Origin: the human T2T-CHM13v2.0 reference genome, Homo sapiens
Direction: 5' to 3' (one strand)
DNA length: 64,000 nt
Assembly: GCF_009914755.1 (NCBI RefSeq)
Contig: NC_060941.1
A program made the position numbers and the translations under genes. The notes beneath the pieces were generated by a model. It had not been told where the DNA came from, ran no database searches, and was given only the letters and a program-made list of their open reading frames with translations. Shown in pieces: positions 26,115-33,863 of the stretch; position 1 is the stretch's first letter; each line of letters begins with the position of its first letter.

Positions 26115-26124
26115 GAACACTGAA

Positions 26125-26915
26125 CTGAACGCTTGTTGGGATGACCTGCCTGCAGAGAGGAGCTACTGTCTCTGCTAGGAGCTGAACTCTTGTCAGGACA
26201 CCCTGACTACAGAGAGGAGCTGCCCAGTGTGGGTCTTCTCTGAGCTGTTCTATTGCTCAATAAAGCTTCTCTTCATCTTGCTCACCTTCCACATGTTTGC
26301 ATACCTCATTCTTCCTGGTTGCAGGACAAGAACTCAGGACCCACCAAATGGCGAGGCTAAAAGAGCTGTAACACAAACGTGGCTGAAACATGCCCCTTGC
26401 TCACCACGTTGTGGGTGAAGAGAAGGAGAGAAAAGCTGCAGCCCTTCAGGGAGCCCAGACCTGGGAGCTCCCTGAGTCAGGGCTATGACTCCCTCTTTGG
26501 GGCCCTGCAGTTCCTGGCATCTCCAAGCTTCCAGGCACCACTGCATTCCCTGGTGCCAGCTGGAGAAGCTGCTTCCAGTGTGCCTGGTCAGCCACAGCCT
26601 CACAGACAGCTGGTGCCCATGCTGGCACCTGGAGCTGCCTACCCTGTGGCAGCAGCAGGCGTGTCTGACTACACAGTGACTGGACCCCATGCTCCCTCAC
26701 ACACCCCTCGCTCACTCACACACCCCTCGCTGCTCCATGCCTGACTCTCAGTCTCCCTTGGAGACATGGGATCCAGGCTGGTAGCATGAGCTGAGTGCAG
26801 CCTGCCAGGCCAAAACAGAGGAACAAGCCCAGCGGGCCTGAGTAAAACTCGGGCAAAGGCGTCACTGGCCACAGGTTTCTAGCCAGAAAAGTGACACCCC
26901 AAAGATCTCGTAACA
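26125..26915 (+). mobile_element. MER52 LTR, 3' portion
   Basis: caataaagcttctcttc poly(A) signal region; ends ccaaagatctcgtaaca. Confidence 0.85.
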
Positions 26916-27399
26916 GTAATTTACATTCCCACCAGCAGTGCATAAGCATTCCCTTTTCACCATATCCATGCCAAGATCTCTTGTTTTTTGACTTTTTAAT
27001 AATGGCCATTCTGGCTGGGATAAGGTGGTGGTATCTTGTGGTTTTAATTTGCATTTCCCTGATGAGCATTTTTTTTCATGTTTCTTTGTCATTTGTATGT
27101 ATCTTCTTTTGAGAAGTGTCTATTCATGCCATTTGCCCACTTTTTGATGGGATTATTATTTTTTTTTCTGGCTGATTTGTTTGAGTTCCTTGTAGAAGCT
27201 GGATATTAGACCTTTGTCAGATACATAGTTTGTATTTTCTCCCTCTCCATGAGTTGTCTGTTTACTCTTTTGATTATTTCTTTTGCTGTGCAGAAGATTT
27301 TTAGTTTAATTAGGTCCCATTTATTTACTTTTGATTTTGTTGCATTTGCTTTTGAGGTCTTAGTCATAAATTCTTTGCCTACGCCAATGTCCAGAAGAG
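26916..27399 (-). mobile_element. L1PB (PB3-like), 5' portion of copy A
   Basis: ORF2 C-terminal peptide [18 protein letters not shown]. Confidence 0.9.
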
Positions 27400-27557
27400 A
27401 AAAGCTAGTATATTTTTGAAACAGAAAGGCGGTGAATGATGTAATGATGATTAATCCTATGGCCCATTATGCTCAAATATAAGAGAACCAATGCCACAAT
27501 TAAAATATAAAACTCAAAATTTATTTTTCCACTCTTAACTTTAAGATTAGTAGTTTA

Positions 27558-27829
27558 CCCAGCACTTTGGGAGCCTAAGGGGGGCAGATCACAAGGTCAG
27601 GAGATCCAGACCATCCTGGCTAACACGGGGAAACCCCGTCTCTACTGAAAATACAAAAAATTAGCCGGGCGTGGCTGTGTTCACCTGTAGTCCCAGCTAC
27701 TTGGGAGGCTGAGGCAGGAGGATGGCATGAACCCGGGAGGCGGAGCTTGCAATCAGCCAAGATCACGCCACTGCACTCCAGCCTGGGTGACAGAGTGAGA
27801 CTCTGTCTCAAAAAAAAGAAAAAAAAAAA
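27558..27829 (+). mobile_element. 5'-truncated AluY
   Basis: gaccatcctggctaacac and ggagcttgc diagnostics; 15-bp TSD aagattagtagttta. Confidence 0.95.
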
Positions 27830-28679
27830 AAGATTAGTAGTTTAATATCAGCAAAACAATATTATCCATCACATTAAAGTAATGCCTCTGATTTGAACTT
27901 TATTAGCTGAGTAGAGTTTGACATATTTATTTTATAAATTGGTGTACGTTATATTGTTGTATAAGTATAAAGAGTTTATGCTTATTTTATATTTGTAGAT
28001 ATTTAAGTAACCTTATGATAAAAATAAAATACTGTAAATCAACACTAGTTTTTTACACTAGTGATTTACACTAGTGTCTGTGAAACTTTTTTCCCCTCTT
28101 TATGGGAGACTATTTGTTACTGAATTTTGTGATGACAATATTATTTTAATTTTTCTATATCAAAATTACTCATCGATGATATACTGACTGGCACTACATA
28201 CTAATGACTGTCATTTGAACAATAATCACTTCGAAGCTCTCCCCTCCAAATGCACAGTGCATATGCATAACATGTATGAGTCTATCTACGCAATGCTTTT
28301 AGCTTTGAAATGCATATTCGCTATAACTGCGTTTATCAAAATTTTATCTAAAATATACTACATTTCTACTATGTTTAATATACATATGCAGATTACATCA
28401 TGGAATTATAACAATAGCTCTATGAAGTATACACTAATACTGGACCCATTTTGTTGGTAAGCAAGGCGAGGCTCAAAGATAAAAAGGGAATTGTTCAAGG
28501 TTATAGGGTTAGTGACACAGAGAAGGGATTCAACTGAAACAATATGACTCTCTATATGTTCTCTTAACCATCAACTTTTGATAGCTTGTCCTTTAGTAAT
28601 ACCTATAATTTGTGTATAGATTGATTTTCTCCATTAGACATGAACTCTTGTAAAGCAAAAATAGTGTCTTAATTTTTTA

Positions 28680-31829: not shown

Positions 31830-32900
31830 GCCCTCATTTCTTCCCTACCCACACATCTCTCCATGGCTTTGAGCACCATGTATGTGACGATTTCTCTCAC
31901 ACGTACACATTTAGTCCTTTCTCTCCTCAAAACTTCAGACCTGAGAGTTCACTTGGATGGCACACAGGCATCTCACCTTGGCATGTTCAAAGCAGAATTC
32001 TCAGTCCTGCTCACACCAAACATCAACCCTTCTCATAGCCTTTCTGTTTTAGTAAGTGGCACCACCGTCCCTCCAATTGATCAAAACAAAGGTTTAGGAA
32101 TTCTTTCCGATTTTCCTCTTTCCCTCACTCCCCCTACCCCAAAGCAGTTTGTCAGTTAACACTGCCTGCTCCTCCCTTATAGTATGCAAAATCCACCACT
32201 TTCACACCACTACCCAGGGCCAAGACATCAACATCCCCTCTCTCGTGAACTATTTCAGTGTTTCCACCAAGACTTCATTCTCCACTTAGCAGCCAAAAGG
32301 TAAATCTCAGCTAAAAGGTAAATCCTATCCTGTCGCTCTTCTAAAATCCCTCCAGTGGTAACTGGAATAAAATCTAAACTCCTCCCACTGACTCACACAG
32401 CCCTACGACACCCGACATTCATAACTTTTGACTCAACTGTTACTATTTCCACTCCCACCCCGAGCCCCACCCCTAACTCCACTCTGGTCACACAATCCTT
32501 CTTTCAGTTCTTCAAACATTCCATGCTTATTCCCAGCTAATGGCCTTTGAGCTTGTAGTTCTCTCTTTCTGACATATTTTTCCTTGTTACTTTTGTCTGT
32601 CTGTCTCCTTTCGTTATCCAGATCTCAAGCTTAAATATTACATCTTTAGAAAGGTCTTCCCTAACCACCCAATCCAACCTACACCTAGTTTCTCTCCATC
32701 AGATCTTTTGACTTTAATTCTCTGCATGATGTCATCATGAGCTGCTATTTCTTCTTGTTTACTTCCTCTTTTTTCTCTGTCTGCCCTTCCCAACCCAACC
32801 CCTCCATACATGTCTTGAATTTTAGTTGTAACTCCAGTGCCTACAACAGTGCCTAACACATAGCAGGTGCTAGAAAATAATTTTTGAATACATGAACAAG
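31830..32900 (+). mobile_element. L2
   Basis: Pyrimidine-rich L2 body ending cagtgcctaacacatagcaggtgc...tgaata. Confidence 0.75.
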
Positions 32901-33599
32901 CAAAGAGGGAAAGGACAATCACTCAGACAAAAGGAGACAAAAGGAGCATAAAGGACTGAAAAAAAATATTCAGCGTAGTGAGAAGCTGGGAGCACAGAGA
33001 GTAGGAGGGAGCAGGGTGAAAAGGACAGCGGAGAGCAGAAGCCTCCAGCCCACGCAGCACTCGGAGGGATTTTAAGGAGTTTCATCTTCATCCAAATACT
33101 AATGAGAAGGCAGACACAGGGCTGAGAAAAGGATAATATGCTAGTGATCTTGAACTCAAACTGAAAGAGACTTAATAGGAAAAATAAGGCCACTGCTGTA
33201 GTGATGGGCCCCCGGGTAGTCAGAGCAGAAATGCACTGACCCACATCAGTTCATTTCTCTCCCCATGGCACACACAGTCATCATCACTTCCAGCCTCGCC
33301 ACCATGAAGTGAACAACAGCCCGTGGAATGAACTTTCACTTCTTCAAGAGCATAATGCTGCTTTCCAACCCAGGCCCGCCCTGCATGCGGTTTCCTCTAC
33401 ATACAAAGCTCCTCCAACTTCCACATGCCTAGTTAACTCCTTTTTTCCCCTTCATTTCTCTGCTGAAACCTCATTTCCTCAGGAAAAGCCTTCTTGGACC
33501 CTCTCCCCGCACCATACTGTGTCAGGGCCCACTGTTATAGTTCCCTGAACTGTAACTCCAAGAAATTACCATTCTTTCTTTCACAGCAGGAATCAGTAT

Positions 33600-33750
33600 C
33601 ACATGCGGTTGAAAATGAAAGCTGTTAGACTGCGTAGCATCCCACATTTTCTACGTGGTAGCTGTGTAAACATAGGCAAATTATATAATCTCCTTGAAGA
33701 CTTCAGTTTCATTATCTGTAAAATAGGAATAATAATAGTCCCTACTTCAA
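33600..33750 (+). mobile_element. MIR (partner of the MIR half at ~25870-25978)
   Basis: cttcagtttcattatctgtaaaataggaataataatagtccctac. Confidence 0.75.
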
Positions 33751-33753
33751 AAA

Positions 33754-33863
33754 TTTTTTTTTTTTTTTTGAGACGGAGTTTCGCCTTTGTTGCCCAGGCA
33801 GGAGCGCAGTGGCGCGATCTTGACCCACAGCAACCTCCGCCTCCGGGTTCAAGAGATTCTCCT
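33754..33863 (-). mobile_element. AluSp/Sq right-arm end (broken at inversion breakpoint)
   Basis: gagacggagtttcgcctttgttgccc, poly(T). Confidence 0.9.

What the first reader, a model, noticed from the sequence alone, without database searches (positions are those of the whole stretch)
26115..33863. ~7.75 kb inversion readable from four broken repeats, with non-homologous breakpoints
Seen: the AluSp left arm (+, ends 26114) is fused to the 3' half of MER52 (+). The Alu right-arm end (-, 33754-33863) is fused to the 5' half of MER52 (-). Flipping the interval restores one Alu inside one MIR, with TSD TTGAAGTAG (25970-25978 and reverse complement at 33742-33750). It also restores one MER52 inside one L1PB, with 4-bp TSD gtaa/ctaa (26916-26919 and reverse complement at 34172-34175). 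About 55 bp of Alu, and probably part of the LTR middle, are lost. A short filler (gaacactgaa) resembles the adjacent ctgaac sequence. Inference: end-joining or template-switch repair rather than NAHR, after AluSp insertion. The event may be lineage-specific or polymorphic.
Basis: partly seen in the sequence, partly recalled or inferred. Interest (0 to 1): 0.7.

Follow-up and report, generated by a model that had tools for sequence, protein, structure and literature searches.

The report
Ancient fixed 7.8-kb chromosome 17 inversion
A 7.8-kb piece of human chromosome 17 is flipped, as four old repeats cut in two at its ends show; it likely flipped once, through error-prone break repair, more than 25 million years ago in an ancestor of apes and Old World monkeys, and it cuts no annotated gene.

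Summary
The inversion is real. Each broken piece was mapped separately on independent copies. The L1 halves abut with a ~4-nt overlap, and the MIR halves abut. The Alu halves share one subfamily (12 of 14 versus 0 of 17) and a 9-nt target-site duplication. The LTR halves lie in order on one strand in 17 of 18 other copies.

Corrections: the right junction is at 33871/33872, not 33863. About 50 nt of Alu and 0.5-0.8 kb of the MER52A LTR are lost. A fifth repeat (L2-like) is probably broken too. No homology links the breakpoints. The left filler matches the adjacent LTR sequence (templated insertion); the right junction is nearly blunt. This favours end-joining over template switching and excludes NAHR.

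It is probably neither human-specific nor polymorphic. No row lies at this place in a CHM13 callset of 41 genomes, a human-chimpanzee table or a human-macaque table, and hg19 appears to carry the same broken LTR piece. It most likely dates to about 25-40 million years ago. The date rests on absences from tables; no outgroup sequence was seen. Verdict: an apparently unrecorded member of a known class, with no sign of function.

The parts
26115..33871 (.). Inverted segment, 7,757 nt including the filler (CHM13 chr17:56,446,115-56,453,871)
25715..25869 (-). L2-like 3' end, outer piece of a probable fifth broken repeat (family name recalled)
   Evidence: 2 of 1000 shuffles on 2 of 4 comparators, not significant on the other 2; not significant
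25872..25978 (-). MIR 3' part, outer piece
   Evidence: 0 of 1000 shuffles
25970..25978 (+). Alu target-site duplication, left copy (13 nt from 25966 if a T-run slip is allowed)
25986..26114 (+). Alu left arm, ending in the A-rich linker at the left junction (AluSp label recalled)
26115..26124 (+). Filler of 7-10 nt; first 7 nt match the LTR sequence just after the junction, last 5 nt are a tandem copy
26125..26915 (+). MER52A LTR 3' piece, ends in CA, AATAAA at 26259
26916..26919 (+). LTR 4-bp target-site duplication, one copy
26916..27398 (-). L1 upstream piece, 5'-truncated (L1PB label recalled, not tested)
32133..33332 (.). RefSeq enhancer carried inside the inverted segment
   Evidence: hub annotation
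33333..33500 (+). L2-like body, inner piece of the probable fifth broken repeat
   Evidence: profile of 3 in-window copies, E 3.8e-6
33603..33750 (+). MIR 5' part, inner piece
   Evidence: 0 of 1000 shuffles on two comparators
33742..33750 (-). Alu target-site duplication, second copy
33754..33871 (-). Alu right-arm end with poly-A tail; right junction at 33871/33872
33872..34171 (-). MER52A LTR 5' piece, starts with TG; likely the 299-bp hg19 instance chr17:53655114-53655412
34172..34175 (-). LTR 4-bp target-site duplication, other copy (3 of 4 identical)
34172..34766 (+). L1 3' piece, outer

Best explanation
The segment 26115-33871 is inverted between a break in an Alu and a break in a MER52A LTR; it likely arose once from two DNA breaks rejoined the wrong way round by error-prone end-joining, likely 25-40 million years ago, and is likely fixed in humans. 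Shown: the pieces of four repeats, their order and strands on independent copies, loss of about 50 nt of Alu and 0.5-0.8 kb of LTR, a 7-10 nt filler matching the neighbouring LTR sequence at the left junction, a 0-2 nt overlap at the right junction, and no homology between the breakpoints. The broken repeats also show that the human arrangement is the derived one and that the event came after both insertions. Inferred: two breaks 7.8 kb apart, end resection, and polymerase-theta-type joining with a templated insertion (end-joining about 55%, replication template switching about 35%, other 10%); fixation; and the date, bounded by Alu subfamily activity above and the ape/Old World monkey split below. 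It is likely neutral.
For: Collinearity of halves: L1; MIR; Alu; LTR. Same Alu subfamily: the 14 Alus picked only by likeness to the left piece share the right piece's extra base in 12 of 14, versus 0 of 17 in-window Alus. No homology between the four 100-nt breakpoint flanks except the Alu's own two arms. Filler 7-mer found exactly within 20 nt after the junction in 7 of 16 other LTR copies. Not polymorphic: none of 20 chr17 rows of the CHM13 callset lies between 47.16 and 60.89 Mb, and the paper reports no CHM13 misorientation. Older than the human-chimp split: no human chr17 row between 41.7 and 54.9 Mb in PMC1270012 Table S1. Older than the human-macaque split: no row starts between hg38 54.60 and 56.04 Mb in PMC11092980 Table S7, which lists 0.2-3.5 kb events nested in the same 24-Mb inversion. 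A 299-bp minus-strand MER52A instance in hg19 fits the right piece, so those reference-based tables apply.
Against: The age rests on absences from tables; no ape, macaque or marmoset sequence was seen. The hg17 and hg38 positions use recalled offsets, supported only by one CHM13-GRCh38 row at 44 Mb. The hg19 row was matched by family, strand, length and place, not letter by letter. The right junction has only 0-2 nt of overlap, less than typical for microhomology joining. A 7-mer with one mismatch within 20 nt is common by chance (7996 of 63900 window positions); together with the tandem 5-mer it is rarer (210 of 63900; 0 of 1015 in the LTR pieces), but that test was chosen after seeing the junction. 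Tens of millions of years of mutation may have altered both junctions. The AluSp label and its age come from recall plus PMC1266357 passages.
Confidence: 0.78

Rival explanations
1. Same old inversion, but made during replication: a stalled fork switched template twice (FoSTeS/MMBIR), copying the segment backwards and skipping sequence at both ends.
For: Deletions at both ends plus a templated filler are the pattern that PMC6748972 ascribes to possible FoSTeS/MMBIR in 18 of 21 non-homologous inversions. The right Alu piece is more diverged than the left (9 of 93 versus 3 of 115 non-CpG sites), which error-prone synthesis could explain.
Against: No microhomology above 2 nt at the right junction; no third segment or duplication seen. 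The divergence contrast is biased, since comparators were chosen on the left piece.
Confidence: 0.35
2. The inversion is younger: specific to apes or great apes, and missed by the human-macaque catalogue.
For: The catalogue is alignment-based and manually filtered. The complete-ape and LGvar catalogues cover only events of 10 kb or more, so they cannot speak to it.
Against: The same table calls smaller nested inversions on both sides of this place, and the segment holds several kb of alignable sequence.
Confidence: 0.13
3. Human-specific or polymorphic inversion, or a CHM13-private allele.
For: None found. The chimpanzee draft used in 2005 had gaps.
Against: hg19 appears to hold the same broken LTR piece.
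Confidence: 0.03
4. Recombination between inverted repeats (NAHR, retrotransposon recombination-mediated inversion).
For: Inverted Alu pairs span the region, and both breakpoints lie in repeats.
Against: The breakpoints lie in unrelated elements, the junctions are Alu/LTR chimeras, and sequence is lost at both.
Confidence: 0.01
5. No inversion: chance juxtaposition of unrelated repeat fragments, or an assembly error.
For: Repeat fragments are common.
Against: Four elements abut in register, two with target-site duplications. An assembly error would not add a filler and two deletions, and no CHM13 misorientation was reported.
Confidence: 0.01

Closest known systems
Non-homologous (NH) inversions with breakpoint deletions or insertions (PMC6748972, passages read)
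   Same: Kilobase size, no inverted repeats at the ends, deletions and an insertion in the derived allele, single origin expected.
   Different: Those 21 are polymorphic in humans with an outgroup-defined ancestral state. This one appears fixed and shared with macaque, and its direction is read from the repeats alone.
Human-chimpanzee inversions with a retrotransposon at only one breakpoint (63 loci; PMC2603318, passages read)
   Same: An Alu is cut at one breakpoint without a homologous partner; double-strand breaks in repeats are proposed.
   Different: The second break is in an ERV1 LTR nested in an L1, and the event is probably not a human-chimp difference.
Retrotransposon recombination-mediated inversion (RRMI, NAHR between inverted Alus or L1s; PMC2603318)
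   Same: Both ends lie in retroelements.
   Different: The elements are unrelated, the junctions are Alu/LTR chimeras and sequence is lost; not a member.
Polymerase-theta-mediated end joining scars (recalled knowledge)
   Same: Deletions plus a short insertion templated from the flank.
   Different: The right junction overlap is only 0-2 nt, and the enzyme cannot be tested.

Membership tests
Non-homologous inversion (NH class) | No long inverted repeats at the breakpoints | tested here: met
Non-homologous inversion (NH class) | Deletions or insertions at the junctions of the derived allele | tested here: met
   about 50 nt Alu loss, 472-828 nt LTR loss, 7-10 nt filler
Non-homologous inversion (NH class) | Single origin, consistent orientation across primates | tested here: inconclusive
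   only absence from three tables; no primate genome on hand
Human polymorphic inversion | Both orientations segregate in humans | tested here: not met
   no row among 20 chr17 rows of a 41-genome CHM13 callset; rare alleles not excluded
RRMI / NAHR inversion | Two same-family elements in opposite orientation at the two breakpoints, with chimeric same-family products | tested here: not met
   Alu at one break, LTR at the other
Polymerase-theta end-joining scar | Short insertion templated from flanking sequence | tested here: met
   filler 7-mer within 20 nt of the junction in 7 of 16 other LTR copies; chance rates
Polymerase-theta end-joining scar | Microhomology of 2-6 nt at junctions without insertion | tested here: inconclusive
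   0-2 nt overlap at 33870-33871
Polymerase-theta end-joining scar | Dependence on the enzyme | not testable with these tools
   ancient germ-line event
MER52A solo LTR (ERV1) | TG...CA termini and a 4-bp target-site duplication | tested here: met
   3 of 4 bases identical
MER52A solo LTR (ERV1) | Both pieces belong to one element family, in order, without overlap | tested here: met
   17 of 18 genomic copies
MER52A solo LTR (ERV1) | Family label | tested here: met
   published hg19 instance of matching strand, length and place; matched by inference, for the 5' piece only
AluSp | Both halves from one subfamily | tested here: met
   12 of 14 versus 0 of 17
AluSp | Diagnostic bases of Sp rather than Sq | not tested
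   label recalled; no subfamily consensus on hand
L1PB | Subfamily-diagnostic 3' end | not tested
   L1 continuity shown; label recalled

The most novel reading that the evidence does not exclude
An unrecorded inversion fixed on the catarrhine stem and absent from New World monkeys, with a 30-million-year-old polymerase-theta scar still readable: one example of a hidden class of old small inversions that ape and macaque comparisons cannot see but that can be found and polarised from broken repeats in a single genome.
Probability: 0.35. Interest if true: 0.45.

Novelty: new member of a known kind. Interest (0 to 1): 0.25.

Why it matters
As a locus it matters little: no gene is cut, the enhancer inside moved by about 5.5 kb, and the LTR fragment that likely corresponds to the right piece was inactive in a published reporter assay. 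Its value is as a clean worked case. The direction, relative age and repair signature of an inversion can be read from one genome, for events that predate the species normally compared. If marmoset lacks it, it is also a low-homoplasy marker for catarrhines.

Tried and rejected
No other LTR copy lies in the window, and a scan of viral contigs found none; copies came from the genome itself. A 5-13 nt microhomology at the right junction, suggested, was rejected once LTR copies showed that LTR sequence stops at 33872-33870. No outer target-site duplication was found for the L1 (best 7 nt). No G-quadruplex motif near either junction. An inverted Alu 447 nt upstream of the left break is only 71-76% alike; kept as an unlikely trigger. 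The L2-like pieces were not significant in direct pairwise tests (27 and 29 of 300 shuffles), the left piece was missed by the profile, and a genome search found only self. The supplement of PMC12058530 held no text, and its catalogue starts at 10 kb. No human-marmoset catalogue of small inversions was found. The supplements of PMC2603318 and PMC7605249 were not read, and bioRxiv supplements are closed; any of these could bear on the age. The macaque orthologue of the LTR fragment (instance T_9092) was not looked up.

Full report
What was checked. The window is T2T-CHM13 chr17:56,420,001-56,484,000 (hub note). Both breakpoint regions and the interior were read. Every broken piece was mapped on its own against independent copies of the same repeat, first from the window and then from the rest of the genome.

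L1 and MIR. The L1 pieces 26917-27398 (-) and 34172-34766 (+) map to 48159-48653 and 48161-47537 of one other in-window L1. They abut with a 3-4 nt overlap, and a second L1 near 16.3 kb gives the same register. The overlap is the LTR's 4-bp duplication (3 of 4 bases identical), present once in the comparator. The MIR pieces 33649-33749 (+) and 25969-25872 (-) map to consecutive parts of one in-window MIR (40303-40411 and 40420-40519), 0 of 1000 shuffles each; the opposite strands score at chance.

Alu. The left arm (25986-26114, +) and the right-arm end (33754-33871, -) share an exact 9-nt flank; 83 of 20000 random 30-mers do as well, and the upstream flanks of 12 other Alus reach at most 7 nt. 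The 14 genome-wide Alus most like the left piece share the right piece's extra base in 12 of 14 cases, against 0 of 17 in-window Alus, so the halves come from one subfamily. The name AluSp is recalled, not tested. The gap between the halves is 49-52 nt in 12 of those 14, and 51-52 nt in 16 of 18 in-window Alus.

LTR. The right piece begins with TG and the left ends with CA. In 18 other genomic copies, both pieces align on one strand and in order in 17; the gap is 472-828 nt in 16, and 244 nt in one weak case. The 5' alignments are strong in the 7 copies chosen with the 5' piece and weak in the 11 chosen with the 3' piece. Table S5 of PMC12273786 (rows found by number search; the file was cut when stored) lists an hg19 MER52A instance at chr17:53655114-53655412, minus strand, 299 bp, inactive in both cell types assayed. 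Setting its end at the LTR terminus puts its other end at 33873, two bases from where my Alu alignment stops. I take it to be the right piece; this is an inference, not a letter-by-letter match. Intact MER52A instances among those rows measure 1.4-1.8 kb, and PMC11007075 places MER52A in ERV1 (passages).

Junctions. Right: Alu bases match to 33871 (18 of 18) and stop at 33872 (1 of 18). LTR copies match to 33873 (8 of 10), partly at 33872-33870 (5, 5, 3 of 10), and not beyond. Left: LTR bases start at 26125, partly at 26122-26123, so the filler is 7-10 nt. Its first 7 nt occur exactly within 20 nt after the junction in 7 of 16 other copies; this locus's own LTR differs by one base. A 7-mer match of that looseness is common (7996 of 63900 positions); combined with the tandem 5-mer it is rare (210 of 63900), a post hoc test. 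The four 100-nt flanks share no homology except the Alu's own arms.

A fifth repeat. An L2-like 3' end lies on the minus strand left of the MIR, and an L2-like body on the plus strand inside the right end, as the inversion predicts. Support is moderate: E 3.8e-6 for the inner piece, 2 of 1000 shuffles on 2 of 4 comparators for the outer, and not significant.

Age and frequency. The broken repeats make the human arrangement the derived one. In PMC10150506 Table S1 (CHM13 coordinates, 41 genomes), none of the 20 chr17 rows lies between 47.16 and 60.89 Mb, although rows of 0.6-9 kb are present; the text reports no CHM13 misorientation. In PMC1270012 Table S1 (human versus chimpanzee, sorted by size; 30 of 52 chr17 places seen, down to 192 bp), no human chr17 row lies between 41.7 and 54.9 Mb; the expected place is near 51.0 Mb by a recalled offset. 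In PMC11092980 Table S7 (human versus rhesus; places 21-50 of 62 seen, spanning 37-74 Mb), no row starts between hg38 54.60 and 56.04 Mb, while nested events of 0.2-3.5 kb are listed nearby; the expected place is near 55.57-55.59 Mb. PMC7605249 (abstract start, passages) gives about 25 million years for the human-macaque split. PMC1266357 (passages) has AluSp active around the platyrrhine-catarrhine split 35-40 million years ago. The likely window is 25-40 million years. This is inferred from absences; PMC12058530 and the LGvar preprint (passages) cover only events of 10 kb or more.

Mechanism. Shown: unrelated elements at the two breaks, loss at both, a flank-matching filler, a nearly blunt second junction. 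Inferred: two breaks, resection and error-prone end-joining of the polymerase-theta type (about 55%), or replication template switching (about 35%), which PMC6748972 (passages) suggests for 18 of 21 human non-homologous inversions with indels. One old sequence cannot separate the two. NAHR is excluded.

Comparison and novelty. It works like, and by the two sequence features testable here belongs to, the non-homologous inversions. It resembles the 63 human-chimp inversions with a retrotransposon at one breakpoint (PMC2603318, abstract and passages). It is not an RRMI and probably not a human polymorphism. Searches found no description of this locus (none of the 15 papers listed of 96 mentions MER52A); most subscription papers and several supplements were not searchable. 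PMC5753468 and PMC13421694 were seen as passages only and add family context.

Verdict. Real and well resolved, probably old, fixed and neutral. New member of a known kind; interest 0.25.

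Noticed in passing
window 35760-35800 and 36907-36947: Inverted pair of 41 nt, 93% complementary, 1.1 kb apart, outside the Alus; the second arm overlaps the last exon of LOC102724732. Could mark a small inversion, an old DNA-transposon end or a templated copy.
   Followed up: no
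window 34805-34890: Short inverted repeat of about 9 nt flanking a TA/TG microsatellite just after the L1 tail.
   Followed up: no
window 25976-25991: 8-nt tandem duplication at the 5' end of the broken Alu, separating the target-site duplication from the Alu start by 7 nt.
   Followed up: partly
window 33754-33871: The right Alu piece is more diverged from its subfamily than the left piece (9 of 93 versus 3 of 115 non-CpG sites); comparators were chosen on the left piece, so this is biased.
   Followed up: partly
window 25240-25538: Older minus-strand Alu 447 nt upstream of the broken Alu, forming a head-to-head inverted pair of 71-76% identity.
   Followed up: partly
window 30210-30447: Local tandem duplications after an Alu tail: three units of 32-34 nt and two of 56 nt.
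   Followed up: no
window 40250-40820: Two MIR copies in tandem on the plus strand; the second overlaps an exon of LOC102724732.
   Followed up: partly
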